Below, in pieces: positions 4,321 to 64,000 of a stretch of DNA of 64,000 bases. Origin of the DNA: Geosiphon pyriformis uo1 (Eukaryota > Fungi > Glomeromycota); the NCBI GenBank assembly GCA_016748015.1, contig JAAOMT010000129.1:248001-312000 (forward strand), given 5' to 3'. A program made the position numbers and the translations under genes. A model generated the notes under the pieces. It had not been told where the DNA came from. It saw only the letters and a program-made list of their open reading frames with translations, and searched no databases. Every line of letters begins with the position of its first letter. The first letter of the stretch is position 1.

Positions 4321-4322
4321 TT

Positions 4323-4339: not shown

Positions 4340-4340
4340 T

Positions 4341-5528
4341 ATAATCCTACAGAGAATCAGTGCCAACAACACCATCCAAATGTGGCAGAATCAGAAATTA
4401 TAGGAGCCAACCACTTAGAATTCACAAAATTCTTGTTTCAACAATACAGCCAACAATTGGGATTAAACAATAATCACTATCCAGCCGAATCAGTTTTCAA
4501 CTATTACGTCAATGATAAAATCACAGACTGTTTAGAAGGAACCATTAATATCGAGTCAGCAAGAGAAAATTTCTATACAGAATTATTTTAACACACCAGC
4601 TTACCAAGAAATCACAGTTTTGCCCCAATCATTAGAGAAATTAATCAAACTATTGAAAGATACATGCAACAACAATTTCCCATTACCTACGCAGACAAAG
4701 GTAAAGGAAGAATACAAACACCAGCAGCAACACCAAAAAAAATACAGTTACCTAGTTGGAAAAAACACAAAGTAGAATCACCAACCACTCTATCATATTA
4801 CTACACACTTAGAAGTGCCATCAACATTTTATCAGCAGACATGTCCACATCAAATGCGACATCAACATTTGGAAGATTTCAGTTCCAAAGCAAACAACGG
4901 AAAGAAGACTTACTAGGACCATATAGTGCGTATTTTGAAGGATTAAATCACAATCTTCAACACCATCAGGAATTTGATCACCAATACTCCAACCAGATTT
5001 TGGAGCCGCTACTCCATGGGAATTATCAAAGAAAAAAGAGGAAAGAAGTAAAGATTAAGAATTCACTTACCAAAACCCGATCTCAGAAAACTCGGAATTT
5101 GGAACCCCGAATATTCAAACTTCATGAAATTCAAACATAGAAAATCCAGAAATTGAAACTCCAAATATTAGAACTCAGCAAAATCAAAACAATCAGAACC
5201 CCGATTTAATTAATCAGCCAAATGTACCTCCAAATATTGTCATCAATTATCCACCAATTGATTCGATAGTTGAACCCATTCAGCAGCCATTTCAACAACT
5301 GAATCCTCAAATCCAACAGCCACAAAGACCACCTCAGCAACCACCACTGCAACAACAACTAAATGTAAATCAAATGGTCTATGCACTTATCACCAAGTTA
5401 GAAAACTTTACTGGTGAAGAAGACAACACTCAAGCATGAATTAATGACGTTTCCAAGGCCATTATAGCAAACAATTGGGATGATGTCAGAGTCCTACAGG
5501 CAATCCCATATTTTCTCAAAGAAACTGC
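4341..5528 (+). pseudogene. A1 gag, 5' part (continues at 15479-16008 after the nested element B)
   Basis: Colinear with 54952-56110. The reading FLKET|ANSWY is restored across the B insertion and matches LKDTANSWY at 56101. Confidence 0.85.
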
Positions 5529-6512
5529 TATTACCAGACGAAATTAGAGATATTGTTTAGCATGAAATTACCCTTATAAATTTTATCATTAATTAGCATA
5601 TATTATCATTTCAAATTATCACTTATTACATTAGCAAAATGTTCAAAATTATCATTTAATTAATAACTCAATTTGTACATAACACAAATTTAACCTAAGT
5701 GTAATGATTAATTATGCAATACCCCGAAATATGTAACATTCAAAAGTTTGCCAAAATTTGTAAAAATTTGCCAAAATAATTGATAGTTCACTGAAATATC
5801 TAATAGTTCGCAGAAATAACTTGTAGTTTGCCGAAATATACTTTTAGTTTGTCGAAACCATAGTAAAGAAAATAGTTCAAGTTTATAGACTAGTACTACA
5901 ACAAGTTGTATAAAAGAAGAGCTTTTCTCTTCGAGAAAATATATCTTACTTCAGATTTAACAATTAGAATCATTCTTTATACACAAAAACAAAATAAATA
6001 TCAAATAAATTCGAAAAACCAAATTCTTTAAATTATTACACTTGGAAAATTCTTAAAACCCAATTAACATTTTGAAATTGATTAGCTACCAATTTCAATA
6101 AACTGTTAGTGACTTTAGGCCTGGATCAAAAACAATTTCCTTAACAGAATTCAATTTTCTTTTATATTTCTTTTATTTTTCTTTTCTTTTCTCATTACAA
6201 TTATTAGGGTAGCCTACAGATGAGATTTCTGTAGAAAAGTTGACTTTCACAGCAAAGTAACTACACATTTTTTTGTGAGCTTTCAGATGAACAATTCCTG
6301 AGAAAGAGTTGATATTTACTACAACATAACTACATAAAGCAACTGGCACAGAATTGGCCATTCCACTTATAAGCCCAGCAGTTCAAATTATAAGAGATAA
6401 TTTGAAGATAAAATTCAGTTATTGAAGGTTCAAACACTTTCCATAGTCATGAATTAACAGCACTACAACAAACATACAAGAGCTAAAAAGAGACCAAAAA
6501 CCTCCGGTAACA
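5529..6512 (+). repeat. 5' LTR, family B
   Basis: t(a/g)ttacca...ctccggtaaca; direct repeat of 14494-15478. Confidence 0.95.
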
Positions 6513-6557
6513 TTTGGTGCTCTCTCATAGAAACAACACAGCAAAAACAACTTCAAA

Positions 6558-8600
6558 GTGGTGACCACACCAGATGCAACAACTCTAGAGTATTACCAGT
6601 CAATTTACACCCACTGCAAGCAAAGATTTAACATTCCAGACGGAATTGAAGTTGTCAAGAAATCAGTATACCAATACATTAAAAACCGCATCAACAATTA
6701 TCTTTTTGGAAATTACAATATTTCAGAAGTTAGAAACAACCTTTACAATAATTTAGTACACTATTCACAGTTGGGAACTGAAGACCTTAACAGTGAAACA
6801 CTTGCCACTTACTTTCAAGAACTTAATTTTAACATTATCAAGTACTGTGAAGAAACATATCCAGTGCAGTCTCAATACTCTATTGATTTTGAATCAGAGA
6901 CAGAAACAAGCAACAAAGGCAAACAAAAATTGAAACAATATTCAAAAACCACTCCAAATACTCCAATACTACCAAAAACAACTGTCAAACACTTACAAAC
7001 ACCTGAACAAGAAACCAGTTTAAAACTTCCACTTACTATCACACTTTTTCCAGCTTTACTTGCACAAACACAAACACTTAATTCATTTTTAAATCGATTT
7101 GCAAGACTAGAAGATTTTATATTACCCAAAAGTCCCACCAGACAACAAGAACCCCTTCAAACTAGTTCCAATCTCCTTGACTTTCTAGCTGAAAATCAAA
7201 GTGAACACTCTGAGACAGCAGCAAACGAAGAAAATGACTCTGAAATATCTGAAGAAAAATCAATAAACAGGAAAAACGAAAAAAACAAAATGACAGCATA
7301 CATTGTAAAAATCTCTGAATTTAATGAAGAAGACATTGAGACCAGTCCCCAAGAATGGCTCGACCAAGTTACTAAAGCTGGAGATGCAAATGGATGAAAT
7401 GCTGCCAGAATGTTAAAAACAATTCCCTATTTTCTCAAAGAAACAGCAGACGAATGGTTCGAAAACTTGACCACCTCTTTTAATAACTGGACAGCTTTTA
7501 AAACTGCCTTCTTAGAACAATTCACCAATAACAACACCTCAATCACACTTCGAAATTGTTTTCGCAATATCAAACAAGAACCCTCCAAATTTGTCATAAC
7601 TTATATTGGGAAATTTAACAAACTTTTCAAACAAATTTGCCAACTTGAAATTAATAATAATTATTCTGATGCTCAAATCTTGAATCAATTTATCACTGGT
7701 TTAAAGGATAAACTGATTAAAAAAGTTCACCCACATGTCCCAGAAGATTTAAACTCTGTCATTCAGCATGCAAAGAGATATAAAATGGCCATGGAAGAAG
7801 CCAATTGTATAAAACTTGTGAACTTAGCCATTGGAGAGACCAGCTCAGCAGCTGAAAAAAAAATTGACCAACTCACAAAAAAAGTCAAAAACTATTTCAC
7901 CAACCAACAACAACAGCAATTCCAAAGATATCAACCACCCCAAAGATGGAATCAAAACAACTTCACATCATCCTCTAATAACCAGCCTCAGAATTGCCAT
8001 TACTGTGAAATTCCTGGCCACTGGAAAAGAGATTGCAGGAAGCTACAATGAGACCAACAGAATAGGAGTAATTAATGTTACCTTTTGCCACAACAATCTT
8101 ATTACCAACCACCACTACCACCAGCTTACTATCCACCAAGACCACAATATCAAACCAACTATTATCAATCTGCTCTACAGCCAATGCAACAACAGTATCA
8201 ACAACCCATTCAACATTACCAAATACCTGCTCAAAGATTGGTTCAACAAAACCAATTTGTATCACAAAACTGATTCGCAACAAACAACAACAGAATCAAC
8301 CTAAATAACCAATTAGTTCCCCAAAATTCAGCTCAACCAAGACCCAACCACTATCATACTCAACCTAGTTATTTTATGATGCCAGAAGAACAGGATTTTC
8401 ACCATACTGCACTCTTAGAAGGTAGAGCTGCAGCACAACAACAAAATTTTTCTCATAATCACACCACTATTCTACCAGCCAGAATTGCTGAAAATGTCAA
8501 TCTCTCTGATATCTTTCCTTTTGAGTTCGAAGCCAATGAATCACCATTTCTACTTAGCAATGCTACTACAAATGAACAAAAAGCAATCACAGCTATGTAT
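6558..8600 (+). pseudogene. Family B Gag (N-terminal helical domain, capsid, CCHC nucleocapsid, Q/P-rich tail)
   Basis: Retrotransposon-gag-like 'FLKETADEWF...FKTAFLEQF...IKQEPSKFVITYIGKF...QFITGL' and zinc knuckle 'CHYCEIPGHWKRDC'. Confidence 0.9.
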
Positions 8601-8970
8601 ACTGAAGCTGAAGTTAAAAGAAAAACAATCCGCTTAATCTTAAACAGTGAATCCGCCGAAAGTATTATTACTTACTAGTTGATGCAACAGTTAAAGAGAA
8701 ATGTTGACCGACCAGCTCAAACAGTAATTATCACTGCTGATGGCATGAAAAAGACTCCAGTAGGAGAAATTGACAATTTTCTATTCACTCTCAATGGAAT
8801 TACCATTCCAGTCAAAGTTCTTGTAATGGATGCTCTCCAGTATCAAGCCCTTGTTAGAAATGATTGGCTTTAAAAAACCAATGCTAATCTGAATTGGGAG
8901 ACACAAGAGTTAACAATCTTCTACCAAAAACAACATGTCCAGGTACCTGCCACTTGTGGTACATTTAACA
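8601..8970 (+). pseudogene. Family B aspartic protease
   Basis: 'LILNSESAESII' is a mutated LILDSGSAGSII (intact at 57358 in A3). Also 'TADG' flap and 'ALVRNDWL' (LLGxDWL). Confidence 0.85.
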
Positions 8971-9179
8971 AATGCTCTGAAAAAGCCCCAGCTTTTGAAT
9001 TCAAACTGGAAGAAGAAAAACCCATTATTGAAACATTTATGGCATTTGGATCAACCTCCAATTGGGCTGATGAAACTGAACAAGAACATTTTACTCCACA
9101 CTCTGAACCTGAAACCCCTGGATGAAATATCCCTTACTCAAAGCCTAAACTAAGGAAACGACACCCCTACATTCTCCTT

Positions 9180-9790
9180 AAATGCAAAGATTGCCACAAG
9201 AAACTTTCATCAATGGGAGCCTGCATTTCATCTGAAGAAGAATATGAAAATCATACTTGTTATTACTGCAAGGCTTGTCACAGAAAATGATGGGGCCACC
9301 TAATAAAAAGAAGTAGAAAATAGGACAACACCCTTTGTTTGACTTGTGGAGATATGCTACCAGAAGAATGCAATTGGATTGATGTAGTAATGAGAGGAGG
9401 AGTCTGCGATCAAACCTGCCAATATGCTTTATCAATTTCAGAAAAAGTCAAAAGAAGAACACCTTTTGATGCTGCTTACAATAGTGCCCTCAACAAACTG
9501 TACTATTATCCTCACAATACCAAAATGATTTTCGATTTAGCAATGGCTTTTAATCAATGGAGCCACTCAAGAAAATGTTTGTCAAATGAAGAAAACAGAA
9601 TACATTGAATATACCATGAAATTAGTTGGATTTGATTACAAAGATGAAGTAGAAGTTTACCACCAAATTGCAAGTCACACCTACTCAACCCAAGAAGCTC
9701 AAATTCAACAATTAGAGCAAATGAACATTAGGCTATGTGAAGAATGCATTATGTCTTGTGATGAACAGTGGTGTCCTGAATGCTATACTC
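9180..9790 (+). other. Cysteine-rich putative zinc-binding module inside Pol, between protease and dUTPase
   Basis: CKDC..KKLSSMGAC..YCKAC..CLTC..CDQTC..CEEC.MSC..WCPEC; Cys spacing is conserved in A3 at 58040-58655. Confidence 0.7.
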
Positions 9791-9909
9791 TTAGCATTCT
9801 CCTGCCCAGTGAAAATGATGAAAACAAAATTGAATTTGGAGAACCTAAAGCAACAGAAGAAATTGAAACAACACCCATCTATCTCATCAAAAATCAGCCT
9901 GCTTCACAA

Positions 9910-10338
9910 CTCAAATACTTTAACAACAATGGACAAGGAATAAAACCAGAAAAAGCACATGAAATTAATGCTGAATACGATCTACAATATTTAAAAAAAA
10001 ACACTTTGGTTCTTTAACCAAATTCTCTTACCAAAATCAATCTCAAAATTGCCCTCAAAATCCCACCAGGAGCAATGGTCCAAATTGTTTCACAATCATC
10101 ATTGGCAAACAAAAGAATTAATGTTAGAAGAGAAATCATAGATGCAGGATATACAGAAGACATTACAGTCATGTTACAAAATGAAATCAATAAACCTTTT
10201 CAGATTAAACATGCTGAAAAAATTGCTCAAGCTATTTATTTACCCTTAAGTAACATTTCGGGTTTACAATTAGTCAGTCAAAGAGAACAATTGGGAAAAA
10301 GTGGAAAAAGAACCAATGGTTTTGGTTCAACTAGATGA
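9910..10338 (+). pseudogene. Family B trimeric dUTPase domain
   Basis: All five motifs are recognisable despite G->A decay: AEYDL (AGYDL), SQSS (RSS), IIDAGYTEDI, KIAQ, RTNGFGST. Confidence 0.9.
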
Positions 10339-10799
10339 TTCACAGTTCCAGTAAACATAGCCCTTAATGAACAAAGTGAATCTCATCAGATTCTATGACT
10401 TCCACAACCAATTACTATTTTACCCTTTGGAGAACACCCTAAAATTTACACTTATAAAAAGCTAACAACCACACAACAAATTTTTGAGTCCAACAAACAA
10501 ATCTGCTCAGAACATAATATCTTGATCCCAAATATTTACATTCCAGAAGAAACAAAGAAAGTCCGAGTTACTTTTTACAATCCCAACAGTTACCCCATAG
10601 TTTTATTAAATAACTTAGAAATTAGAGTCATTCACAGTAACATCTTTCAACAAGAACTATTCCAAATAGTTTTCAATTTCTTGGAAATCATTGAATATTC
10701 ACTACCAAAAATCAACCCAAATCTCAGTTCTGAAAACTACCATGTTGTCATGGAAAAACTATCTCGAATCAACATGAGACAACTTGAATCACAACAACA

Positions 10800-12251
10800 G
10801 AACCAGTTTAAAGAGCTAATTGCAGAATTTGCTAATATCTTTGCTGAAAACAACAATGACTTAGAAAGAACTGATTTGGTTCAACACCAAATCTATACAG
10901 GAGATGCCAAACCAAGGCAACAACAAGCCTACCAAGTTGCTTTAGAAAGCCACCAATTTATCCAAAAAGAAGTACAACAGATGCTTAATAATGGGCTTAT
11001 TCAACCATTAATGAGTTCATGGGCCTCATCTGTGGTTTTAGTTAAAAAGAAAAATGGAAAGATATAATTTTGTGTTGATTATCAACAACTCAACAGTGTC
11101 ACTATTGGAGATGTCTACTCTTTTCCCTGAATTGATGACATGTTGGATGCCCTTGGGAAGTCCAAATACTTTTTGACATTAGATTTAGAGAGTGAATACT
11201 GGCAAGTTGCCATGGATTCCAAAGATCGTCCCAAAACAGCATTCACCACTCAAAAAGGAAATTACGAGTTCAACATAATGCCTTTTAGATTATGCAATGC
11301 ATCAGCAACATTCCAAAGACTCATGGATGTTGTTTATAAAGGCCTTCTTTGGAAATCAGTAGTTGTCTATCTTGATAATACTAATGTTTATTCACCATCT
11401 TTTGAATTACACTTAACACACCTTGGAAATCAGTAGTTGTCTATCTCAATAATACTGATGTTTATTCACCATCTTTTGAATTACACTTAACACACCTGCG
11501 AGAAGTTTTTTAACAATTATAAAAAGCAGGACTGAAACTGAACATTGAAAAATGCTACTTTAGAAAAATGAGTTTGGCCTTTCTTGGCCACATTGTGAGC
11601 AAAGATGGAATTAAACCAGATCTCAGAAAAATCAGCACTGTCAAGAACTTCAAGACTCCACAAAATATCACAGAATTGAGAAGATTTATTGGATTAGCTT
11701 CCTATTACTGAAAATTCATTAAAAAATTCTCAGAAATTGCAAAACTCTTCAACCAGTTTACTACTAAAAATGTTGAATACAAATGGACAGAAGAATACCA
11801 AAAAGCTTTTGAAATTCTCAAGAAAAAGCTGACAACAGCTCCAATTTTAGCCTATCCAGACTTCAGTAACTGATTTCGACTAGCTACAGACACTTCTTAC
11901 ACTGCCTTTGGTGTCATCTTATCACAATTAGATAACAACAGAAATGAGTGAGTAATCGCTTATACTAGCAGAACATTAAAACCAGCCAAGAAAAACTACT
12001 CTGCCACAGAACTAGAAACAGCAGCTGTAATTTGGGCCTTACACCACTTCAACTTTTATTTCAGACCTAAAGAATTTGATATTATCACTGATAATATTGG
12101 ACTCAAATGGCTTCAGAACAAAAACACCCAACTAAACGCAAAACAAACCCGATGAACAGGATTTTTAGCTAACTACCGATACATTGTACATCACAAACCA
12201 GGAAAACTCCACACCAATGTTGATTGTCTCTCAAGAATGAGACAAGATTAG
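10800..12251 (+). pseudogene. Family B reverse transcriptase and RNase H, ending at a stop at 12249-12251
   Basis: SSWASSVVLVKKK, FCVDY, LDLESEYWQV, KTAFTT, MPFRLCNASATFQRLMD, YLDN; RNase H LATDTS, NYSATELE, HKPGKLHTNVDCLSR. Confidence 0.93.
11349..11496 (+). repeat. 74-bp tandem duplication spanning the RT YxDD motif
   Basis: ttggaaatcagtagttgtctat...cacttaacacacc occurs at 11349-11422 and again at 11423-11496. Confidence 0.93.
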
Positions 12252-12297
12252 AACATAAAACCAACACTCATTTGAATTAACAACAAGACAACAAACA

Positions 12298-13683
12298 ATG
12301 AACTCTAAAAACTACAACAATCTTAAACAATATTTGGAGACATTAACAATCTCAACAGATTGGTCTGCAGATGAAAAACACTGATTACAACAACAAGCCA
12401 AACAATACTTCTTACACAACAACATGATTTATTATCGAAACTTCAGAAACCCAGACAATTTACTCAGATTAATACAAGAACATGAAAAAGAAACCATTTT
12501 ATATAACAATCACTCAGAGTCTTTATCAGCACACTTAGGAAAAGACAGCACTACACAGAGAACACTAGAATATTACTTTTGGCCTCAAATGAAAAAAGAC
12601 ATTCATGAATACATTAAGTCTTGTGATAGTTGTTAAAGAAGAGGAAGAACTCACCCTACAGAACCTTTAAACCCAATTAAAGTTGGACAGTCTTTTGACC
12701 AAGTTGGTATCGATTTAGTCAGACCACTATCTATTACAAACCAAGAAAACCATTATATTACAGTAGCTGTAGACTATCTTACCAAATGGCCTGAAGCCAG
12801 AGCCATTCAACAAGCAGATGCAAAATCAATAGCAAACTTCATCTATGAAGACATTATTTGTAGACATGAATGCCCAATAGAACTTTTATCTGATCAAAGA
12901 ACACATTTCGTGAACAATTTAATCCAGGAAATTTGTGGATGATTTAATATCAAGAGACCATTATCTTCACTTTACCATCCACAAACAAATGGACTTGTAG
13001 AATGTTTCAACAGAATATTGTATGAATTATTAGCCAAAGTCTTAACCAATTTTGAGCAAAAATGAGATCTCTTTATTCCATCAGTGTTATTAGCATATAG
13101 AACACTAAAACAAGATACTACAAAACACACACCATTTGATTTAACCTATGAAAGGACAGCAACATTACCAATTAGTTTCACAATGGAAACATATCTAATA
13201 CAACCAATTAATAAAGACAACTTTCAGAAAACACTACAACAAAAAGCCTACACTCTGCTTAGCACGTTGGAAGGAAAACGACGAATAGCAGCCACCCATA
13301 TTAAAAACTCCCAAGCTCAACAAAAAAAACAGCATGACAACAAATTGCTTCCAGTTACCAATGAATTTAAAATCGGAAACAAAGTTCTCTTATACAGAAC
13401 TAAAGCCAAAAAACAATGGAGTGGAAAATTTGAAAACAAATGAGATAGACCATTCTTTATCCATGAAGTCCTAGGCAATAGATTATACAAGCTAAGACTT
13501 GATGACAAAATCCTAGCAAAAGTTGCACATGGAGATTGTTTGAAACACTATAATTCCAAACACAATTCTGAACCATTAATTTCACAAATTGGTACACATT
13601 TCTTTTTAATTAATTCTGAAGATATTCACCAAAATTTAGAACTAATAGTTGTCATTGAACAACCTTCCAACTTGAACACTTAA
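12298..13683 (+). pseudogene. Family B integrase as a separate ORF (HHCC, DDE core, GPF/SH3-like C-terminus; no chromodomain)
   Basis: Own ATG 46 nt after the RNase H stop. HSESLSAHLG...YFWPQM...CDSC; GIDLV; SDQRTHF; YHPQTNGLVECFN; FKIGNKVLL..W.RPF. Confidence 0.9.
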
Positions 13684-13805
13684 CTTAAAATTATTATTAT
13701 AGTTATCTCCTTATAATTTAGAAACAATCTCACAAAAACAAAGCAAAAATAACATAAAAATCTATACACCAAAAATAATTTTCTTTTATTTTCAAATCTC
13801 TTATA

Positions 13806-14482
13806 ATGACTATTCCTCAAAACATTCAACAATTATCCCAAAAACTAATGTTAGCTTTAAAAACAATACCCGAATTATCCATTACTGTTACTGAAAACCA
13901 CATTAATTATACCCAAACAAAAGTAGTTACAAATTTAGTCCCAAATTCACGAAAATATTACTCATATAAGAAGAACACAAGAAGTTATTCTGAAATTCAT
14001 CTGCCAGAACTTTTAAAGCTTGCTTTAAGAGAAAACTTAATGCTCATTTCTATTAGTATTCTACCAAATGCTACTATTCAACAAAAACTTCAACTGTGTC
14101 TTAATGAAGAAAACTACAACTATACTCCAATATATAGATATTTCTACATTGGAAAAACACTTCACAAACGAAAACGGGAGCTTACAGCAGCAAATCTTAC
14201 AAAAAAAGCTATTCAGAAACAACTTCACAACAAATTCAAGACAACAGCTGGACCTACAAACAGTTATTATAAACTAAAAGCTGCTCTTAGACTTTATAAC
14301 CTATTCCACACCTGTAAAAACGTCCTACAAAACCCAATTTTACAGTTTTTGAAGATTCAATACATTAGAAAGCTCACAGAACTGAAATTTTAACAATTTT
14401 CAGACCAAATTTCTTTAATAATTTTGGATTATTATTTGGAAATTACAGACAGTATTTGGACTTTGACAGAGCTCAGTCTTGA
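13806..14482 (+). CDS. Family B ORF-X: unknown ~220-aa soluble protein between integrase and PPT (partly decayed)
   Basis: 195-aa open ORF plus a tail after a CAA->TAA-type stop. Homologous to family A ORF-X (YFYIGKTL vs YFHLGQHL; LQNPILQFLKIQYIRKL vs LLNPEIDFITVNQMRKI). Confidence 0.75.
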
Positions 14483-14493
14483 GAAGAAGGTTA

Positions 14494-15478
14494 TGTTACC
14501 AAACAAAATTAGAGATATTGTTTAGCATGAAATTACCCTTATAAATCTTATTATTAATTAGCATATATTATTGTTTTAAATTATCACTTATTACATTAGC
14601 AAAATGTCCGAAATTATCATTTAATTAATAACCCAATTTGTACATAACACAAATGTAACCTAAGTGTGATGATTAATCATACAATACCCCGAAATATATA
14701 ATATTCAAAAGTTTGCCAAAATTTGTAGAAATTTGCCGAAATAATTGATAGTTCACTGAAATATCTAATAGTTCACAGAAATAACTTGTAGTTTGCCAAA
14801 ATATACTTTTAGTTTGTCGAAACCATAGTAAAGAAAATAGTTCAAGTTTATAGACTAGTACTACAACAAGTTGTATAAAAGAAGAGCTTTTCTCTTCGAG
14901 AAAATATATCTTACTTCAGATTTAACAATTAGAATCATTCTTTACACACAAAAACAAAATAAATATCAAATAAATTCGAAAAACCAAATTTTTTAAATTA
15001 TTGCACTTGGAAAATTCTCAAAACCCAACTGACGTTTTGAAATTAATTAGCTACCAATTTCAATAAACTGTTAGTGACTCTAGGCTTGGATCAAAAACAA
15101 TTTCCTTGACAGAATTCAATTTTCTTTTACATTTCTTTTATTTTTATTTTTATTTTCTCATTACAATTATTAGAGTAGCCTACAGACAAGATTTCTGTAA
15201 AAGAGTTGACTTTTACAGCAAAGTAACTACACATTTTTTTGTGAGCTTTCAGATGAGCAATTTCTGGGAAAGAGTTGACATTTACTACAATGTAATTACA
15301 TAAAGCAACTGGCATGGAATTGGCCATTCCATTTATAAGCCCAGCAGTTCAAATTATAGGAGATAATTTGAAGATAAAATTCAGTTATTGGAGATTCAAA
15401 CACTTCCCATAGTCATGAATTAACAGCACTACAACAAACATATAAGAGCTAAAAAGAGACCAAAAACCTCCGGTAACA
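14494..15478 (+). repeat. 3' LTR, family B
   Basis: tgttaccaaac...ctccggtaaca, preceded by the PPT. Confidence 0.95.
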
Positions 15479-16646
15479 CCGCCAACTCTTGGTACCAGAG
15501 TTTAGCCACCAGACCACAAACATTCCAACAATTCAAAACTGCCTTTTTGGGATATTTTAGCAACAATAACAGTATTAATTGTCTAGCCAATACTTTCACC
15601 ACAATCAAACAGAATAATACTAAAGCAGTCATAATATACTTAGGATGCTTTCATAGAATCCTATGCCAAATTCAAGCCATCGACACCATGTATTTCACAG
15701 AACTCCAGATTCTCAACCAGTTTATTCATGGCCTGTGCAGTAGCATTTTGCAACACATATGCCCATTAACCCAGCCAACCTTCAAGCTGCAGTCACACAT
15801 GCCAGAGATTTCAAATCAGCTGAGCTAAAAGCCAACCACACTCAAGCTGTAAATTTAGTAATAAATAAATCATCTGATTTGGATTCCAAATTGAAGCAAA
15901 TCAGTAATACCATCAATCAGAAAATCAAGGGATACTTAGCTAACAACCAACAGTCCATTTATCAATCTCCCTAAAGACACAGTAATCAGGAAAACTACAA
16001 TTGTTCCCGTATCAAAATAGATCCAGACAAGATAGAGATTATTAAGAACTTTCCAGTACCAAATAATCTCACAGAATTAAGAGCATTCTTGGAATTTGTG
16101 GGATACTACTACCACTTTATCAAGAACTTTTCCAAAATAATCCAACCACTACACCAACTTCAAACAAAAAACATTAAATATAAATAGACTGAAACTTAAC
16201 AAGAAGCTTTTGATATATTGAAAAGAAAGCTTATTCAAGCCCTAATACTGATTTATCCAAATTATAGCAAGCCATTCATAATCACAACCAATACATTTGG
16301 TCAAGCATTGGGAGCAGTACTATCACAGAAAAGAACAGATGGAAGAGAGCATCCAATAGCTTACACCAGTAGAAGCTTAAATCCAGCTGAAAAGAACTAT
16401 AGAACTCCAGTACTGGAACACTTAGCTATCTATTGGGCTGTCATCAAATGGAAAGAATACTTGAGTTAGAAGTTTGACATATATACTGATTACAAAGAAT
16501 TGACTTTAATCCAGAAACAAAAATTTAGAGACAATTGTTATGTCAGATAGAAAATTGAACTTTTATTATTTAATTATACAGTACATTATAAAAAAGGAAA
16601 AAAAAATGAAAATGCCGATAAATTGTTGTGAATAAGACAAATCTAA
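15479..16646 (+). pseudogene. A1 gag remainder (15479-16008) fused directly to the RT C-terminus and RNase H (16009-16646)
   Basis: Gag 'QILNQFIHGL...AVTHARDFKSAEL' jumps at 16008/16009 to 'IKIDPDKIEIIKNFPVPNNLTELRAFL', then RNase H 'ITTNTFGQALGAVLSQ..EHPIAYTSRSLNPAEKNY'. Confidence 0.88.
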
Positions 16647-16676
16647 AAATATTCCAACCCAAAAATATAACAAAAC

Positions 16677-19043
16677 ATAAATATACAAAAATACCAACAA
16701 CTCCAATATTATATAAATACCCAATTGTTTAAGGAGAAATTATCTCAAAAGAAACAAAGAAACATAAAACAACAATCAAAATATTTTGTTAACCATCAAA
16801 ATATACTTTACTGGAAGAACAGAAAAAATTTAGATCAATTAACCAGAGTAATCACAAAATCAGAAAAAGAGACAATATTATTTAACATGCATCCAGATCC
16901 AACAGCAGAATATTTTCATAAAAAAGCAACCATAGAAAGAACCAGAAAAAGATATTATTGGCCATCAATATATTCAGACATCATTCAATATGTTCAAAAT
17001 TGTGATGCTCATCAGAGAAGAGAAGAAACAAAACTCAATGAACCACTAAGACCAATTAAAGTAAGACAACTGTTTGATTGCATTAGAATTGATTTAGTTG
17101 AACCATTAATAATAACTAGCAGAGACAACAAATACATTGCAGTAGTCATGGATTATCTTATTAAATGGCCAAAAGCAAAAGCCATTGTTACAGATGATTA
17201 TTTAGGGTCTCAAATCAAATAACAAACTCATAACTTGGTGTTTAATTAATATAATGTTGTTGATAATATCTAAAAGTGTTGTTTTATCTGAAGATTTTGT
17301 TGTGGAGTTTTTTGTATAATAGACAAAGATTCACTATGGTTGGTTTTGGTTGATTTCTCAAGTCATTTTCCCAATTTCTGTCTTCAACATGATGGCTGGT
17401 TTAATTTGGCAGTTATGCCCTTTTGGTAAGCTATCCATTAATATATATAATTCTACTCTTATTTCTGGTCTTTTACCAGACTATTTTTGACATCAATTAC
17501 TCAGTGTTTAATTTCTTTAATCAGTAGTAAGTCAACAAACAAAAGAAAATAAAATAAAAGAAAATAAAATAAAAAGAAAATAAGAAATTAGAAATAAGCC
17601 AAGGCAATTCAAGTTAGTATCCTGTCAATAGCCATGATCAAAAGCTATTGTTCCAGTGTGGTTAAGTGTTGGATTTTATTAACATGAAGTGTTGATAAAT
17701 AGAAGAGTGATTATATTTTCAAACAAATGACAATAACATAAATTTGAAGAATTGGAGAGATCTTTTATTTATATAATTCCATTTTGGTTAATAGCAACTA
17801 TCTTTAAAATGAGAGTTAATAAATAGAGAAGAAAGGAGATTGTTCTAAATTAATAAAACTCTATTGAATTCTCCTGGAATTACTTTTTCTGCTTTTAACA
17901 CTCTCGCTATATATATATAATTTATGTTATACGAAATTCTGCACATTCATGAGCAATGTACCATAATTTCTTAAGCAATACTTATATTGCTGAGCAATGT
18001 GCCTGTAATTTCTGACAATGTGCTTATTGCTGAACAATATGCCATGATTCTCTGATAATGCTTCACATTGTTGAGCAATGTGCTCATGTGCTAAATATTA
18101 TTTTTTTATTGGTCTATTTTTTCTATCTGTTTTTCCTACTATTTTCTTGTATTTTTTTTCTATGAGTAACACCATTTAAAAAGCAAATGCAGAATCTATT
18201 GCCAAATTCATTCATTAAAATTTGATCTGTCGACATGGATGTCCAAAAGAACTACTATCAGATCAAGGAACTTACTTTGTAAATAGAACATTGGCAGAAT
18301 TAAGTCAAAGATTTGGGATAAAAAGACTATTATTATCACCATACCACCCATAAACAAATGGGCTAATTGAAAGATTTAACAAAACATTGTGTGAAGCAAT
18401 TGCCAAGATCAGCCAAAAAAACCAGGACAAATGGAATTTGATTATATCAACAATATTATTTGCTTATCAAACAATGAAGCAAGACCCTATACAAGCAACA
18501 CTATTTGAATTAATATACAGTAGAACAGCAACATTACCAGTTGAGATAGAAGTCAAGACATATTCAACAGAACTAATAACAGAAGAGAATTTTCAAAGCA
18601 TATTGTTAAGAAGAACATATGATTTAATAGAGACATTAGAAAACACATGGTAAAAAGCAGCTGACAACATCCAAAAGTCACAAGAAAAACAAAAAGAAAA
18701 ACATGATAACCAACTACCAAAGAAACCAGTTGAATTCAAGATTGGAAACAAAGTACTTTTACATCATACCAAAGTGGAAAAACAATGGAGTAGAAAATTT
18801 GACCCCAAATGGGACAGACCATTTCACATAGAAGAAATTCTTGGAAATAGAGCTTATAAATTAAGATAGAACAACAAAATCTTAGCCAAAACAACATATA
18901 GTAATTGACTGAAACCATATTACTATATAGTGTTACCATCCACCAGTAATATTCCACAATTAGAAGTACAAAAAATACTAGTCCAACCAGATAAGATTCC
19001 ATGAGATCTGAAACCAATCATAATCATCAGACCAAACACATAA
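16677..19043 (+). pseudogene. A1 integrase (separate ORF), split by the inverted solo LTR
   Basis: H..H..RYYWP..CDA; IDLV; DYLIKWPKAKAI | SDQGTYF; YHP*TNGLIERFNKTL; stop at 19041-19043. Confidence 0.88.
17186..18171 (-). repeat. Solo LTR (family-A-related subfamily), inverted, TSD ccat
   Basis: The reverse complement starts tgttactcatag and ends ctgtaaca. It is flanked by ccat at 17182-17185 and 18172-18175, and shares the caatagc..gctattg/TACTAAC block with family A LTRs. Confidence 0.93.
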
Positions 19044-19082
19044 ATTTGAACAATAAAAAAAGGATATAAAGACATAATAGAT

Positions 19083-19742
19083 GTGACAGAAGACTTCAGA
19101 AAAATGGAAATCACTGATAACATCTACTCACTAGCACAACAAATCTTCCAACTGATTCAACAACAGAGTATGGAAATTACTATCAATCAACAAACCATTC
19201 AATACCAAGATACCAGAAAGATATTCAAATACAAAAGTCAAAGAAAAACAGAAAACACTATTGACAAAATGGTTCTAAAAATAAAATTGGCAATAGAAGA
19301 ACCAACAAGTGTTACCATATATCAAGAATTGACCAAAGAAACGTGAAAATGGTGAATATACAAATTTCCGAGAAACTTTTGCTATTTTCACTTGGGACAA
19401 CACTTAAATATTTAGAACTTATACACAGATAAAACAAAATGATTATTTAACACAACAATACTACAACAACTGGAACAATTTGTGGAAAAGAACAATCTAA
19501 TAACACAAGCAAAAGCCATCTATCAATTGCATACTGGATTTTAAGACAGACTGGAAATTTTACTTAATCCGGAAATAGACTTTATTACAGTTAACCAAAT
19601 GAGAAAAATAATCAACACCCAATTTGAAGAATTACAGAACAAAATAACTCAAGTAATTCTCGAAAAAGAAGTTCAAGAAATACTCAAAGACAGAAAATTA
19701 GAGTTAGAAAATGTGGGAGATCTTGATGGAGCTCAATATTAA
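19083..19742 (+). pseudogene. A1 ORF-X (~219 codons, in one frame with several TGA/TAA/TAG lesions)
   Basis: MEITDNIYSLAQQIFQLIQQQSMEITINQQTIQY...FCYFHLGQHL...DLDGAQY*; colinear with 62605-63255. Confidence 0.78.
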
Positions 19743-19756
19743 AAAGAAGAAAATAA

Positions 19757-20541
19757 TGTTACTTATAGAATATAGGAAGTATATATTAGCATAAATTAGC
19801 CAATCAGAAATAACCATTGTAAATGTGAAATTGCAGAATTCCAGAAATTTTAGGATTCTTGTACAAAGAATTGCAGGATTCCAGAATTTCTGGTGTGAGG
19901 AATTGAGAAATCAAGAAATCTCAATTATATATATATAGCAGTAGTATTAGAAAGAAAAAAGGCAGGATCTTTTAGTTAGAGATCTCTTAATTTAGATTTG
20001 ATCTAAGCAACCTTCCATATTACAAATATCAATAAACATCTATTTGTTATCTTAATCCATGCTCCACTATTGGCACTATATGTTGATAGTAATTGATACT
20101 TAACCATACTAAAACAATAGCTCTTGATCATGGCTATTGACAAGATACTAACTTGTAAATACCTTGGCTTATCTCTTTTCTTTATTTTTTTATTTTTCTT
20201 CTTTTTTTTTATTGTGTGTACTAATTGATTAAGGATTAAAGCACTGAATTATTGACATCAAGGATTGCCTGGTAAAAGACCTCTGCAAGTAAGTAGAGCA
20301 TATACAAGAATTATAAATTACTTACCAGAGGATTGCCGGCCATCAAGCCAAGAAAAAAATTGATGAAATTGCGATTCTGGAAGATTATTAAAAACAACTA
20401 TTGAATCTTTGTCCATTATACAAAGAACTCAACCAAAACTTTCAGATATAAACCACCCTTAGTAATCAACATCATTATATCAATTGAGCACCAAGTTATG
20501 AGTTTGTTATTTACCAGAGACATCAATAATCACTTATAACA
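19757..20541 (+). repeat. 3' LTR, family A (785 bp)
   Basis: tgttacttatagaatatagg...cacttataaca, preceded by the purine tract aaaaagaagaaaa. Confidence 0.9.
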
Positions 20542-21256
20542 ATATTATCATATTTATATAATAAATAATACTGTAGTATTTTGTGTCTTTTGTATAATAA
20601 AATTGAAATTTCTGATCATTTATTTTTATGTTTATTAAATTTTATTGTATATAATGCTTTGTTGGTTTTTTAGACTATTATATAAGAATTTTTTTTTGGT
20701 TTATGTTAATTTTTTTTTGTATATCTTAATTGTTGTTATTATGTTTGTTAAATTTTGTAGTTTATATTATTTTATATAAAAGTGTTATTTTTAAGACTTG
20801 GTTTCTAAAATTTTTCTTTGTTTTTGAAAATTCTAAGATTATTATAAATAAAATTACAAGTTTCATATATGGTTTGGCTTTAGTTTACAGAGATAAAATT
20901 TGACTTATAGACTCTAAATATTATGTAGTTATAAAAAAAAGAAGTTTGATTCTATTAAATAGTTTAGTGTTTTTTTTTGTTAACAGTTTTCAAAATGTGT
21001 TGTTAAAAGATATGATCAAATTACTTGATATTATTAAAACTTTAAGTATAAGTTTTAGCATATATGTTTTATGTCTATTTATTTTTGATATTAACAATAA
21101 TATTAGTGTTTATATAAAAGCTTAATATTGTTTTAACTGGCTTAAATAACTGGTTATATATAGTAAATACATAATTTATATTTAGTTTAGATTATTTAGT
21201 TTAATGTATTATATTAAGTAATATTTAGATCTTATTTATAAAACCAATAAAAAAAA
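20542..21256 (+). pseudogene. Highly decayed LINE ORF2 C-terminus (zinc-knuckle region) plus 3'UTR and A-tail
   Basis: LYNK*YCSILCLLYNKIEISDHLF matches RLYNKSYPGVLCLLCDKIKLSDHSF of LINE-2. The terminal '...ISVYIKA*' matches '...VFVSIDV*'; ends in aataaaaaaaa. Confidence 0.75.
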
Positions 21257-21419: not shown

Positions 21420-24400
21420 CTATACGTCTATGCTAACAAATACATCACCATCTAAACCAGAAAAAAAGTGACATAATTTGCACCTACCAAATCTAACAGC
21501 AAAAGATTCCATAACTCCAAGCATATAAACAACTCCAACCAATAACATAGAAACTAAACAACAAAACAAGTCTGAGACCACACCATTATTTCCAAACAAG
21601 CCAGCCTTTTCTATATTCATTCTATGTTTGGCTTTGACAACTCATATCTTAGTATGATACAACTTCACCAAAAATCTACTAACTTTTACAAGGACAAGAG
21701 CAGCTTTTTTTTCCCTTCAAAAACCAAAACAGTCTTGACATATTAATTTCTCAACACAAAGTCCTTGCAAATAGCTGTGTACAAGTCCATATCTGAAAAA
21801 CACATAAAAAGCAACTGTAAAATGGCAGAAACAGATGAGCACAAAATACTAAACAATGATATTTATTTACTAGCAGCTTCAACCAAAATATTTCTACAAA
21901 GACCAGAGTTATCAGAATAAGTAAAACTATGATCAGATAACTTTATCTTGTCACACAATAAGCATAATACTCCAGGATAACTTTTGTTATACAATCTTTT
22001 TCTAATTGCCATTGGTAGTTGTCTATAAACAGCTTTTATTAAATATGTGTGCAAATTGGCCAACTTTCTATCAGTAAACCCAGAAAGCATATATGAATCA
22101 GAGTGCCAAACCTCTGTAGTAGTTTTCCACTCAATTTTTTTAATCATAACATCTGGAATTATATCATAACCAGAACCAGTCTTCCAATAAATATGGCAAA
22201 TTGATCAGTACAGATTACAAACAAAGTGACAAGCATTACCAAACACAGTAGTTTTCTCAGCAACCAAATACCTCTTTTAAATCCTAGCCAGCAAAGAGAA
22301 GGGTAAAAACATGGTTTTACTAGCCAATACATCAGCTCTAATATTACCAAGTACACTAGAATGTTCTTTAATCTTTACATACTTAATAGAAATATCTTTA
22401 TCCTTAAGAAGATTGACTATCTGCAATCTTTCAATTCAATATTGGTTGCAGAAGTCAGACACAGTAGAAAAAGTTTCAGACATACAGACATCAATTACAA
22501 ATTGGTTATCCAAGTATAGAACCATAGAGCATGAAGATGAAACACACTTCAAAGCCAAAGCAACAGTCTGCAATTCAGTCAAAGTAGAAGACATAAGTCC
22601 AGCTACCCTAATCCCAATATCTGCATCTACAGCTAGAAAATAAGCAGCTGTCTCACTTATTACCTCATTGGAGCCAGCACTTTTTAAAGACTCATCTGTA
22701 TAAACTTTAATGTAATCAGATCACACTTTTAGTAAACTATTACAAACATCAGAAAACTTATCAGAATCCAAAACATTAAGCATATTTTTTCCAAGAACAA
22801 CAGTAATCCCAACTCCCAAAGAGACAGAATTGCATATAAACTTAGATGTTAATGTGAACCAGTGAAACACAGAGCCCCTCAAATCCAACCACTTCCAATA
22901 CCAAAATGTTTTCTAATCTACCACATTCTCTTTTTTGTTCACAAGTCTGTTACCAAATGTGGCACCAAACCATTTCAATGATGAAACAGATTTATAATAC
23001 AAAAACTGACCTAAGATAACAGATATTGGAAAATTACCAGGCTCATGAAAGACACTAGGCAGATTGTTTGCCAAAGACAACTTATTATCCAGCAAAATTT
23101 TTACCACTTCAGCCAAGAAATTGTTTACAAGACTAGTATGCAACCTAATAGAAAATTGTAAAGAATTTAGAGAAAACCATTTCAGAACTTGCAAATTCAA
23201 AAATCTATGATTAAATAAATGTCTAAGGGTGTCACAGCCATTGAAGAATAAAATCAACAAAGCCAGCTTTTTCTCAAATTGTACTTGCTCAAAAAGTTTT
23301 AGACCATATAGAGATGGATAGTGCAAAACCTCCTTAGAAAAATCATGTGGTAAACCAGTCTTGGCTCGAAGACTCTTCTTAATCATAGTATCCTACTTAT
23401 AACATATACCTGAAGAAACAAAACTAAATTATATGCAAAAGCTAACAATGGACTGCAAAACAGCCAAAACCAAGTAACAAAATTGTTTGTCTGTAATAGC
23501 TTTTTTCAATACTATATTAGTAAAAAACCTAACATTTCTATGAATTTAAGCTAAACTGGGTTTAAAGAGACTTTTAGTTAACAAAAAGATACTCAAATAT
23601 CAATATAATTCACCCTTTTTAGCAATCAAAATTGGCAAGCCATTAATCAACAGTAAAGCATTCTTAACACCTTAATTGATAGGAATAACCACCATCTTAT
23701 CATTATTAATTGAAATATTATTGACCTCAAAAAACTTACTAGCAATATTCAAAATATATTGTGTGGAAGTCTAACAGCTTCCAACCCAAATTGTATCATC
23801 TACAAAGGCACTAACAGCCAAAAAAGAAATTTTTTCTCCAACTGTTTCAATTTTGCCAGACTTTGCTACAAACTTAGTATCTATTCTGTATTCACACAAA
23901 TGCTTATGTTTCTTTACATTATATAAAAACAGATTACAAAAAATTCTCTAAAAGAGCAGAGAAAAAACTTCTTTCTGATCCAACTTATTATATACCCTAT
24001 AACTATCTAAGAGCCCAAAGTCAGTTATTACTCTGTTAATCCTATTCTCATAAATGTTGTCAAAAAACTAGATGAACTGCTTAAACATTTTAATGTAGCA
24101 TAAACTTGGCCTTAAATAATACCAGCCTACCAAATCATAAGCTTTGCACATATCTTACAGTACTAACCAAAGTTTTTTATTCTTTTCTAGAACATTCTTA
24201 ACAATGAAACCAATTGCAAAAATAAGAGATTGGGTAGAAGTACTCTTTAACACCAAAAAATTATCACCACAAAGAACATCAAATTTGCTACAAGCCAAAG
24301 ATATCTGGTTAAAAAGAATCTTAGATAAAATTTTACGTGCAGTATTGATTAATGTGATAAGCCTAATATTCATCAAAACACTATTCCATTCATAAGATTT

Positions 24401-61152: not shown

Positions 61153-61186
61153 AAAACATTTTCAACCCAAAAATATAACAAAAAAA

Positions 61187-62563
61187 ATGAATATACAAAA
61201 ATACCAACAACTCCAACATTATATAAATATCTAACTGTTCAAGAAAAAATTATCTCAAAAGGAACAAAACAACATAAAACAACAATCAAAATATTTTATC
61301 AACCATCAAAATATACTTTACCAGAAGAACAAAAGAAATCCAGGTCAACCAATCAAAGTAATTACAGAATCAAAGAAAGAGACAATATTATTCAACATAC
61401 ACTCAGATCCAACAGCAGAACATTTTCATAAAGAAGCAACCATGGAAAGAACCAGAAAAAGATACTATTGGCCATCAATGTATCTAGATATTATTTAATA
61501 TGTTCAAAATTGTGATGTTTGTCAGAAGAGAAGAGAAACAAAACCCAATAAACCATTAAAACCAATCAAAATAGAACAACTATTTGATTGCATTAAAATT
61601 GACTTAGTTGGACCATTAACAATAACCAGCAGAGGCAACAGATATATTGCAGTAGCCATGGATTATCTTACTAAATGGCCAGAAGCAAAAGCCATTCAAA
61701 GAGCAGATGCAGAATTTGTTACAGAATTTGTTCATTAAGATTTGATATATCGACACAGATATCCAAAAAAATTATTATCAGATCAAGAAACTTACTTTGT
61801 GAATAGAACATTAGCAGAATTAAGTCAAAGATTTGGGATAAAAAAACCATTATCATTACCATACTATCTATAAACAAATGGATTAGTTGAAAGATTTAAC
61901 AGAACATTGTGTGAAGCCATTGCCAAAATCAGCCAAAAAAACCAAAACAAATGAGATTTCATTATACCATTAGTATTATTTGCTTATTGAACAATGAAGC
62001 AAGACACTATACAAACAACACCATTTAAATTAGTATATAATAGAACAGCAATATTACCAGTTGAGATAAAAGTCAAAACATATCCAACAAAACCAATAAC
62101 AGAAGAGAATTTCCAAAGAACATTGTTGAGAAGAACATATAACTTAATAGAAACACTAAAAAACACATGGCGAAAAGCAGTTGATAACATCCAAAAGTCA
62201 CAAAAAAAACAAAAAGAAAGACACAATAACCAACTACCAGAGAAACCAGTTGAATTCAAGATTGGAAACAAAGTACTTCTACATCATACTAAAGTGAAAA
62301 AACAATGGAGTGGAAAATTTGATCCCAAATGGGATAGACCATTTCACATAAAAGAAATTCTTAGAAATAGAGCTTATAAATTAAGGTTGAACAACAAAAT
62401 CTTAACCAAAGCAGTACATAATAATCGACTGAAACAATATTACCATATAGTATTATTATCTACCAATAATATTTTACAATTAGAAGTACAGAGAATACTA
62501 GTCAAACCAGATAAGATTCTACAAGATTTAGAACCAATTATAATCATTGAACCAAACACATAA
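61187..62563 (+). pseudogene. A3 integrase (separate ORF)
   Basis: ATG 34 nt after the RNase H stop. HSDPTAEHF..RYYWP..CDVCQ; IDLVGPL; SDQETYF; TNGLVERFNRTL; WDRPF. Confidence 0.9.
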
Positions 62564-62604
62564 AATTAAACAACCAAAAAAGAGTATATAAAGACACAGT
62601 ATAC

Positions 62605-63255
62605 ATGACAAAAGACAGTAGAAAGATGGAGATTATTGACAGCATTTATTTACTAACACAACAACTTTTTTAACTGATCCAACAACAAGAGATGGAAATT
62701 ACAATCAACCAACAAACTATCAGATACACAAACACCAAAAAAAGATCATGAGATAAAATATGGAGAAAAACAGAAAATACTGTAAACAAAATAATTACAA
62801 AAGTGAAATTGGCAATAGAAACACAACCAAAAGTCACCCAATATCAAGAGTTGACTATAGAAACTTGGAATTGATGGATACAACAATTTTCAAGAAACTT
62901 TTATTACTTTTATTTGGGACAACACTTAAACATTCAGGGCTTATATATGAATAAAACAAAATGATTATTTAACACAACAATACTGCAACAACTGGAACAA
63001 TTTGTGGGAAAAAACAATTTAACCACACAAGCAAGAATTATTTATTGGCTACATACTGGATTTCAAGATTGACCAGAAATCTTACTCAATCCAGAAATGA
63101 ACTCCATTACCATTAACCAAATAAAAAAAATAACCAATGCTCAATTTAAAAAATTACAGAACAAGATAACACAAGTAATTCTTGAAAAAAAAGTTCAAGA
63201 AATACTCAAAGATAGAGAATTAGAATTAAAAAATCTTGACAGAGCTCAATATTAA
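62605..63255 (+). pseudogene. A3 ORF-X
   Basis: ATG-initiated and colinear with 19083-19742; ends NLDRAQY* immediately before the PPT. Confidence 0.78.
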
Positions 63256-63269
63256 AGAGAAGAGAATAA

Positions 63270-64000
63270 TGTTACTCATAGAATATAGGACGTATATTAG
63301 CATATAAATTGGCTAATCAGAAGTAGCTGTAGTAAATATGGAATTCTAGAATTCCTTTTAAAAGAATTGCAGAATTGCAGAATTCCAGAATTTCTCTCAA
63401 AGAAATTGCAAGATTCCAGAAATTCCAGGATTTCTGGTGTGAAGAATTAAGGAATTGAAGAATCTCATTATGTATATATATTGGTAGCATTAGAAAAAGA
63501 AAAGACAGACCTCTCAGTTTAAATTTGATCTAAGCAACCTTTCATATCACAAATATCAATAAATAATTATTTATTATTTTAATCCACTCTTCACTATCAA
63601 CATTTTATGTTGATAATAATTAATACTTAACTATATTAAAACAATAGCTCTTGATCATGGCTATTGATGGAATACTAACATTTATTACTTTGGCTTATTT
63701 TTTTATTTCTTTTATTTTTATTTTCTTTTGTTATTTTTTTTTGTTGTTTACTAATTGATTAAAGATTAAGTGCTGAATTATTAACATCAAGGATTGCCTG
63801 ATAAAAGACCTCTGCAAGTGGGTAGAGCATGTAAAAGAATTATGGATTACTTATCAGAAAAGTACTGGTCATTAAGCTGAAGAAAAAAATTGACTGAATT
63901 GCAATTCTGAGAAGCTATGGATAAACAACTATTGAATTTTTGTCTATTATACAAAGAACTCAACCAAAACCTTCAGATAACAATATCTTTAGATTACCAT
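63270..64000 (+). repeat. 3' LTR of A3 (truncated by the window end)
   Basis: tgttactcatagaatatagg after the purine tract aaagagaagagaa. Confidence 0.92.

What the first reader, a model, noticed from the sequence alone, without database searches (positions are those of the whole stretch)
13806..14482. ORF-X: conserved non-env accessory gene between integrase and PPT
Seen at 13806-14482 (B), 19083-19742 (A1) and 62605-63255 (A3). Cross-family similarity: MTIPQNIQQLSQKL..LSITVTENHINY vs MEITDNIYSLAQQI..MEITINQQTIQY; YRYFYIGKTL vs FCYFHLGQHL; AALRLYNLF vs AKAIYQLH; LQNPILQFLKIQYIRKLTELKF vs LLNPEIDFITVNQMRKIINTQF. There is no signal peptide or transmembrane segment, so it is not an env. It looks helical and, in B, basic. 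Inference: a nucleic-acid-binding transactivator or anti-silencing factor, analogous in role to foamy-virus Tas or VANDAL VANC.
Basis: partly seen in the sequence, partly recalled or inferred. Interest (0 to 1): 0.8.

Follow-up and report, generated by a model that had tools for sequence, protein, structure and literature searches.

The report
Third gene of fungal Gypsy retrotransposons
Several distantly related families of Gypsy-type jumping genes in this fungus carry, just behind their integrase, the same extra gene, kept under purifying selection and without membrane-spanning segments, whose predicted all-helical protein has no close known relative and likely acts as a nucleic-acid-binding helper of the element's own activity.

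Summary
Confirmed: a real third gene. ORF-X lies between integrase and the PPT in all three Gypsy copies of the window that reach the 3' LTR, and nowhere else in it. All three copies are broken by stop codons. The B frame runs through the PPT into the LTR (13806-14525). Relatives are Geosiphon pyriformis hypothetical proteins and a few unnamed metagenome proteins, forming about nine groups mostly 14-39% identical; a metagenome contig (L001) shows an intact gene in the same slot. Families A and B are homologous (HHalign 86%, E 4.8e-6). Selection is purifying: dN/dS 0.22 against a neutral null of about 0.55 (0 of 4000 simulations as low). It is not env and not a Gag fragment. The predicted core is a confident seven-helix domain with a weak, inconclusive likeness to ParB-type helix-turn-helix domains, unsupported at sequence level. 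Best guess (0.4): a nuclear DNA-binding regulator of its own LTR; untested. Also noticed: integrase is a separate ORF in these elements.

The parts
13806..14525 (+). ORF-X, family B copy: 239 codons, premature TAA at 14391-14393; overlaps the PPT and ends in the 3' LTR
19104..19742 (+). ORF-X, family A copy A1: 212 codons, 5 in-frame stops, ends at the PPT; homology extends up to 19074
62626..63255 (+). ORF-X, family A copy A3: 209 codons, 5 in-frame stops, ends at the PPT
5529..6512 (+). 5' LTR of element B (56 differences in 984 aligned bases to the 3' LTR; 4-bp target duplication with one transition)
6515..6532 (+). PBS-like site of element B (TGG-starting, 2 nt after the LTR); priming tRNA not identified
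6531..12251 (+). gag (capsid, zinc knuckle) - protease - Cys-rich stretch - dUTPase - RT - RNase H of element B, decayed
12298..13683 (+). Integrase of element B as a separate ORF with its own ATG, 46 nt after the RNase H stop
14469..14493 (+). GAGCTC motif plus polypurine tract (14481-14490), conserved as DNA in B, A1, A3 and L001
14494..15478 (+). 3' LTR of element B, with three 13-nt direct repeats at 14710-14802
18172..19043 (+). C-terminal part of the integrase in front of ORF-X A1
19757..20543 (+). 3' LTR behind ORF-X A1 (end approximate)
61187..62565 (+). Integrase of element A3 as a separate ORF with its own ATG after the RNase H stop (61150-61152); end approximate
63270..64000 (+). 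3' LTR of element A3 (cut by the window end), with about 40-nt tandem repeats built of AATTCCAG-like units

Best explanation
ORF-X is a conserved, purifying-selected third gene of a fungal Ty3/Gypsy lineage that likely encodes a nuclear DNA-binding regulator, predicted to use a helix-turn-helix-like core to recognise its own family's LTR and promote that family's expression in a host that silences repeats. Shown: position, family-wide presence, homology across about nine groups, purifying selection strongest in the helical core, no membrane segment, decay of the window copies at the same pace as pol. Predicted: an N-terminal helix-strand-strand module, a flexible basic linker, a seven-helix core with a G-K/P-T-N turn followed by a basic helix. 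Inferred and untested: expression from its own start by an internal promoter or spliced RNA, nuclear import by the PY-like motif, DNA binding, the LTR repeats as target, and whether the effect is direct activation or relief of methylation.
For: Slot: a profile scan of all six frames finds the gene at 3 places of the window, each behind a Gypsy integrase; L001 has RT-RNase H, integrase, intact 230-aa ORF-X, PPT and LTR start in the same order. Selection: A1 vs A3 dN/dS 0.223 (bootstrap 0.13-0.37; shifted frames 0.66 and 0.92), neutral simulations median 0.53-0.56, 0 of 4000 as low; differences fixed between B subfamilies (48) are more conservative than private ones (140; mean BLOSUM +0.33 vs -0.49, P 0.001) and rarer in the core (0.12 per residue vs 0.31-0.35 N-terminally) while private changes are flat (0.54-0.67). 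Structure: core model pLDDT 89.5, pTM 0.83. Among the 50 best VIA rows, Spo0J/ParB spans the whole core (Z 5.4, rmsd 5.0, 95 aligned); ParB DNA-binding domain Z 4.4, rmsd 2.9, 60 aligned; sigma-F fragment Z 4.6, rmsd 2.5, 57 aligned; KorB Z 3.7, rmsd 5.1, 96 aligned with the full model. N145 and R155 are the commonest residue in 9 of 9 groups, with K/R at 143 (7 of 9), 149 (5 of 9) and 151 (6 of 9). An R/K/H-x2-5-PY motif (PY-NLS consensus, PMC2408616, search listing only) sits in the low-confidence basic linker of 57 of 102 B proteins and of P0250, P0318, P0256. The three LTRs examined each have their own short repeats. The host pressure is visible: CpG observed/expected 0.07-0.33 in the elements vs 0.83 in the Tra1 gene.
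Against: The structural match is within what common helical arrangements give (best Z 5.7, Spo0J tied with unrelated proteins). Profile-profile comparison with 14 ParB proteins (score 11.6 vs shuffle mean 10.7) and with DUF1016_N (16.0 vs 15.0-16.6) is null, while the ParB-vs-DUF1016_N control scores probability 84%. The protein is not basic overall once decay is allowed for. The PY motif arises anywhere in 19-25% of shuffled proteins and was not found in the A, F and H proteins checked. Short repeats are common in LTRs and were not tested against shuffles. The integrase control for A1 vs A3 was weak (0.50, with one shifted frame lower at 0.26), and B vs L001 is near saturation (0.37, interval 0-0.66). 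Annotated gene models favour open frames, which may bias the protein-level test.
Confidence: 0.4

Rival explanations
1. RNA-binding regulator (Rev-like): binds the element's RNA and balances genomic against sub-genomic messages, which this lineage would need because integrase and ORF-X are separate downstream ORFs.
For: Integrase has its own start after an RNase H stop at 4 of 4 junctions read, with gaps of 24-46 nt in different frames; the best VIA row is a helical domain of the RNA-processing enzyme PNPase (Z 5.7, rmsd 2.6, 64 aligned); basic linker.
Against: The PNPase match covers only the first three helices and is tied with unrelated proteins; no Arg-rich motif or export signal was identified.
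Confidence: 0.2
2. Integrase partner or particle component: targets or chaperones the separately translated integrase, standing in for a chromodomain.
For: Always next to integrase; the L001 integrase ends in an SH3-like domain with no chromodomain match; a free integrase needs some way into the particle (inference).
Against: ORF-X diverges much faster than integrase (30% vs 55% identity between B and L001) and, between A1 and A3, shows dS 0.79 against 0.25 for the adjacent integrase, which suggests it is exchanged together with the LTR end and not with integrase (inference).
Confidence: 0.18
3. Counter-defence by protein-protein contact, for example a suppressor of RNAi or of a chromatin silencing complex, with no sequence-specific binding.
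For: Fast divergence with a kept fold; strong decay of the elements; in the related fungus Rhizophagus irregularis TEs are CG-methylated and Gypsy elements make small RNAs (10.1101/2021.03.30.436303, passages).
Against: No test of positive selection was run; the one dN/dS that can be trusted is purifying; no similarity to a known suppressor in Pfam scans.
Confidence: 0.14
4. Env-like or cell-to-cell movement protein.
For: It occupies the env slot.
Against: No hydrophobic segment in 20 of 20 proteins; small soluble-looking helical model.
Confidence: 0.03
5. Neutral passenger: a captured host-gene or Gag fragment, or a chance frame, copied along with the element.
For: All three window copies are broken, with stop density like pol (1/239, 5/212, 5/209 vs 5/444-6/258); the last residues are dictated by a DNA motif read in different frames.
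Against: Purifying selection between lineages; fold-level conservation over groups 14-39% identical; intact copy in L001; best profile hit in gag has E 1.6.
Confidence: 0.03

Closest known systems
Sense additional ORFs between pol and the 3' LTR of LTR retrotransposons (aORF-3S; Vicient and Casacuberta 2020, PMC7264820, parts 1-2 of 3 read)
   Same: Same slot and orientation, present across copies of a family, origin unknown.
   Different: The reviewed sense ORFs are discussed as env-like, some with transmembrane segments; ORF-X has none, is fungal, and in B and L001 runs through the PPT into the LTR.
Additional ORF of unknown function and dUTPase in fungal Gypsy elements (Novikova et al. 2010, PMC2864245, passages; supplements not read)
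   Same: Fungal Gypsy elements with an extra ORF, and with dUTPase between protease and RT.
   Different: That survey centres on chromodomain-bearing elements; no chromodomain was found in the L001 integrase. Their extra ORF could not be compared, so identity with ORF-X is not excluded.
Non-envelope ORF3s of bdelloid rotifer LTR elements (PMC5408684, abstract only)
   Same: Third ORF that is not env, in dUTPase-bearing lineages.
   Different: Those are recognisable enzymes (GDSL esterase, DEDDy exonuclease); ORF-X has no significant Pfam match.
VANC21/VANC6 of Arabidopsis VANDAL (PMC6719617, passages)
   Same: Element-encoded accessory protein; families with their own short repeats; methylating host.
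   Different: DNA transposon of a plant; no sequence link found; family-specific demethylation untested for ORF-X.
Foamy virus Tas (recalled, no call)
   Same: Accessory gene at the 3' end next to the LTR; DNA-binding activator as the proposed role.
   Different: Retrovirus with env; no sequence link found in the Pfam scans.
ParB/Spo0J/KorB helix-turn-helix DNA-binding domain
   Same: Similar order of helices over the whole core; G-K turn before the basic helix.
   Different: Z at most 5.4, rmsd 5; no profile-level similarity.

Membership tests
Ty3/Gypsy LTR retrotransposon (host element) | LTR pair with TG...CA ends, target duplication, PBS and PPT | tested here: met
   Element B: LTRs 5529-6512 and 14494-15478, 4-bp duplication, TGG site, PPT; the 5' LTR begins TA through a transition
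Ty3/Gypsy LTR retrotransposon (host element) | Order gag-protease-RT-RNase H-integrase | tested here: met
   Ty3 is the best solved match for L001 RT-RNase H and integrase
Ty3/Gypsy LTR retrotransposon (host element) | Integrase as part of the pol polyprotein (usual arrangement) | tested here: not met
   Stop after RNase H and a separate start at 4 of 4 junctions read (the A1/A2 start reads ATA)
Chromovirus | Chromodomain after integrase | tested here: not met
   No chromodomain match in the L001 integrase; the whole B integrase was given in the wrong frame in that call and is untested
Conserved sense additional ORF (aORF-3S) | Between pol and 3' LTR, sense, family-wide, under selection | tested here: met
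Env / env-like protein | Transmembrane segment | tested here: not met
   Kyte-Doolittle maximum 0.06-1.33 in 20 of 20 proteins
Env / env-like protein | Signal peptide | tested here: inconclusive
   No hydrophobic N-terminal stretch by hydropathy; no predictor available
Gag fragment | Similarity to the element's own Gag or to Gag families | tested here: not met
   Best profile hit in gag E 1.6; Retrotrans_gag matched 1 of 49 members at E 0.007, region not checked
ParB/KorB helix-turn-helix domain | Fold | tested here: inconclusive
   Spo0J Z 5.4, rmsd 5.0, 95 aligned, tied with unrelated folds
ParB/KorB helix-turn-helix domain | Sequence profile similarity | tested here: not met
   HHalign score 11.6 vs shuffle mean 10.7
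DUF1016_N (PF17761) | Sequence profile similarity | tested here: not met
   One member at E 0.12; HHalign 16.0 vs shuffle means 15.0 and 16.6
VANC or Tas type regulator | Sequence family match | tested here: inconclusive
   No such family among the 25 shown of 36 and of 58 weak Pfam matches; I did not check which models the library holds
VANC or Tas type regulator | Family-specific DNA binding, activation or demethylation | not testable with these tools
   needs bench work

The most novel reading that the evidence does not exclude
A lineage of 'complex' fungal retrotransposons: gag-pol, a free-standing integrase gene and a third gene for a helix-turn-helix-like protein that binds its own family's LTR repeats and lifts silencing family by family, a retrotransposon counterpart of VANC and Tas that arose independently in fungi and helped LTR elements expand massively in this genome.
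Probability: 0.2. Interest if true: 0.8.

Novelty: new variant of a known kind. Interest (0 to 1): 0.52.

Why it matters
LTR elements cover 41.2% of the G. pyriformis genome (PMC11952901, passage) despite heavy C-to-T decay. A family-wide third gene under selection is a candidate reason and a testable one: an intact natural copy exists (L001), the core folds confidently, and each family has its own LTR repeats to test as targets. It also explains several hundred 'hypothetical proteins' of that species as decayed transposon genes, and points to an unusual gene layout with integrase outside pol. Extra 3' ORFs as a kind are known; this protein family and layout were not found in the papers searched.

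Tried and rejected
No whole genome is held for the window, so no genome-wide DNA count or dN/dS was possible. ESM Atlas gave no result for four proteins. Pfam, PHROGs, NCBIfam and solved-structure sequence searches gave only weak scattered matches (phrog_23683 in 11 of 49 members, best E 1.4e-4; FtsQ in 11 of 49, best E 4e-4; importin-5 E 0.01-0.07), taken as chance helical matches. Foldseek found nothing at E <= 0.001 in PDB or viral models; VIA gave no Z >= 8; this shows neither a new fold nor exclusion of any family. DUF1016_N and ParB leads failed at profile level. The ORF-X profile found nothing convincing in 20 prokaryote genomes (2 of 20, E 0.11 and 0.4) or, with single proteins, in viral contigs. 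Homodimer prediction: no answer, score 0.01. No RNA holder listed. Contigs of one DNA run (X1, possibly the window's own source) cover both ORF-X regions in 30 of 30 bins; depth cannot rank genes and was not used. No relative of ORF-X inside the LTRs or in the LINE elements of this window. P0312 among the 117 hits is a repeat protein and was set aside. Paper searches listed no description of this ORF or of a separate integrase gene in these fungi; the Geosiphon genome paper and Repbase-type libraries were not available, and no supplements were read, so either may hold it.

Full report
Setting. The window is fungal: its long host gene is Tra1 and matches fungal chains best. All 120 listed of 161 hits to ORF-X B and all 97 hits to ORF-X A1 are named as Geosiphon pyriformis hypothetical proteins, one of them (P0127) identical to A1 with the stops spliced out by the gene model. 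No whole genome was held.

Anatomy. Element B (5529-15478) is a decayed Ty3/Gypsy element nested in an A-family element: LTRs differing at 56 of 984 positions (54 transitions), a 4-bp target duplication, gag with capsid and zinc knuckle, protease, a Cys-rich stretch, dUTPase, RT, RNase H, integrase, then ORF-X. ORF-X starts 121 nt after the integrase stop. This copy stops early at 14391-14393; relatives of 239 aa align over 13806-14522, through the PPT and 32 nt into the 3' LTR. A1 and A3 carry the A form, five stops each, no frameshift, ending at the PPT. A six-frame profile scan finds the gene at these 3 places only; the LINE elements of the window lack it.

Homology. The A and B searches shared no listed protein and pairwise scores are weak, but the family profiles align over 183 columns (probability 86%, E 4.8e-6). 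A combined profile against 1.84 billion representatives gave 117 hits at E <= 0.001, including further divergent groups: 7 of 10 looked up are Geosiphon, 3 are unnamed metagenome proteins. A wider profile gave 100 hits of 2133 candidates, 98 Geosiphon and 2 unnamed. No named protein of another species appeared, but these searches have limited reach. Nine groups are 14-39% identical to each other, apart from the two B subfamilies at 65%.

Selection. A1 vs A3: dN 0.18, dS 0.79, ratio 0.223 over 200 codons (0.13-0.37), against 0.66 and 0.92 in shifted frames and a transition-biased neutral null of 0.53-0.56 with 0 of 4000 runs as low. Between B subfamilies (26 and 20 proteins) fixed changes are conservative and depleted in residues 89-215, while private changes are radical and evenly spread. 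Against this: the integrase control for the same pair was weak (0.50; one shifted frame 0.26), and B vs L001 is near saturation. Stop density in ORF-X is like that in pol, so selection acted in the active lineages and not on these inserted copies; there is no sign of domestication.

Protein. No hydrophobic segment in 20 of 20 proteins. The intact L001 protein was folded in place of a consensus: helix-strand-strand N-terminus, disordered linker, and a seven-helix core of pLDDT 89.5 and pTM 0.83. The most conserved positions are Y102, Y104, G108, the G-K/P-T-N turn, N145, R155 and F160. The structural matches that cover the core best are ParB-type DNA-binding domains (Spo0J Z 5.4, rmsd 5.0, 95 aligned), but they are tied with unrelated helical proteins, and profile tests against ParB and DUF1016_N are null while the control between those two is positive. 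The tail is not a protein feature: the DNA motif GAGCTC-PPT-TGTTAC is shared by B, A1, A3 and L001 and is read in different frames.

Mechanism. Shown: a lineage-wide, selected, soluble third gene. Inferred: it is translated from its own start, since it follows two stop codons; it enters the nucleus and binds nucleic acid through the basic helix after the conserved turn. I commit to binding of its own LTR with 0.4: each of three LTRs has its own short repeats (no shuffle control), CpG is depleted in the elements, and between A1 and A3 the ORF-X end is far more diverged than the adjacent integrase (dS 0.79 vs 0.25). Rivals are an RNA regulator (0.2), an integrase or particle cofactor (0.18) and a protein-binding counter-defence factor (0.14). 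The first two gain from the separate integrase ORF seen at 4 of 4 junctions.

Comparison and novelty. Sense ORFs between pol and the 3' LTR are a known kind (PMC7264820, parts 1-2 of 3 read); fungal Gypsy elements with dUTPase and an additional ORF of unknown function are on record (PMC2864245, passages); a survey of fungal LTR elements mentions only gag and pol as usual ORFs (PMC3248453, abstract and passages); rotifer ORF3s are enzymes (PMC5408684, abstract); VANC acts through family-specific tandem motifs (PMC6719617, passages). Tas and Rev are recalled, not from a call, except the one-line mention of Rev and Tat. Searches listed no paper on this ORF; supplements and the species' genome paper were not seen. 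Two earlier notes of this scan describe similar orphan third genes in other fungal genomes; sequence look-ups found no link to them, so they are leads only. Verdict: real gene, undescribed protein family, function open; new variant of a known kind; interest 0.52.

Noticed in passing
window 12249-12300, 61150-61189, 16644-16679; L001 772-801: Integrase is a separate ORF: RNase H ends in a stop and integrase begins 24-46 nt later at its own ATG (ATA in the third copy), in different relative frames. Unusual for Ty3/Gypsy; one annotated protein (P0118) starts at this ATG.
   Followed up: partly
window 9022-10600 and about 57500-59400: Between protease and RT the elements carry a Cys/His-rich stretch of no Pfam family followed by a dUTPase (E 2.7e-12 in B, 1.6e-10 in A3).
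   Followed up: partly
window 6531-7400: Gag has an N-terminal extension of about 290 residues with no Pfam match in front of the capsid domain.
   Followed up: no
window 14469-14474, 19729-19734, 63242-63247; L001 3092-3097: GAGCTC motif 25-28 nt before the LTR start, conserved across families whose ORF-X proteins are 22-29% identical; possibly a cis signal for plus-strand priming.
   Followed up: partly
window 5529-6512 vs 14494-15478: Decay is 54 transitions to 2 transversions and hits C in all contexts (CA 26, CT 14, CC 8, CG 6 if read as C-to-T), not CpG alone; RIP-like or broad methylation.
   Followed up: partly
window 3393-20543: Nested structure: an A element holding element B and an inverted A-type LTR (about 17186-18171), with most of pol deleted; its two outer LTRs are only about 73% alike, so it may be a recombinant.
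   Followed up: no
window about 21800-28900 (minus) and 550-3300 (plus): Decayed LINE-like elements (endonuclease-like start, RT, RNase H-like end by eye), with an A-type solo LTR inserted at about 27534-28388.
   Followed up: no
window 34969-45900: Host Tra1 gene with a 2689-codon open stretch and CpG observed/expected 0.83, in contrast with the repeats.
   Followed up: partly
protein P0127 and others: Many annotated 'hypothetical proteins' are gene models that splice around stop codons or fuse ORF-X to neighbouring repeat sequence.
   Followed up: partly
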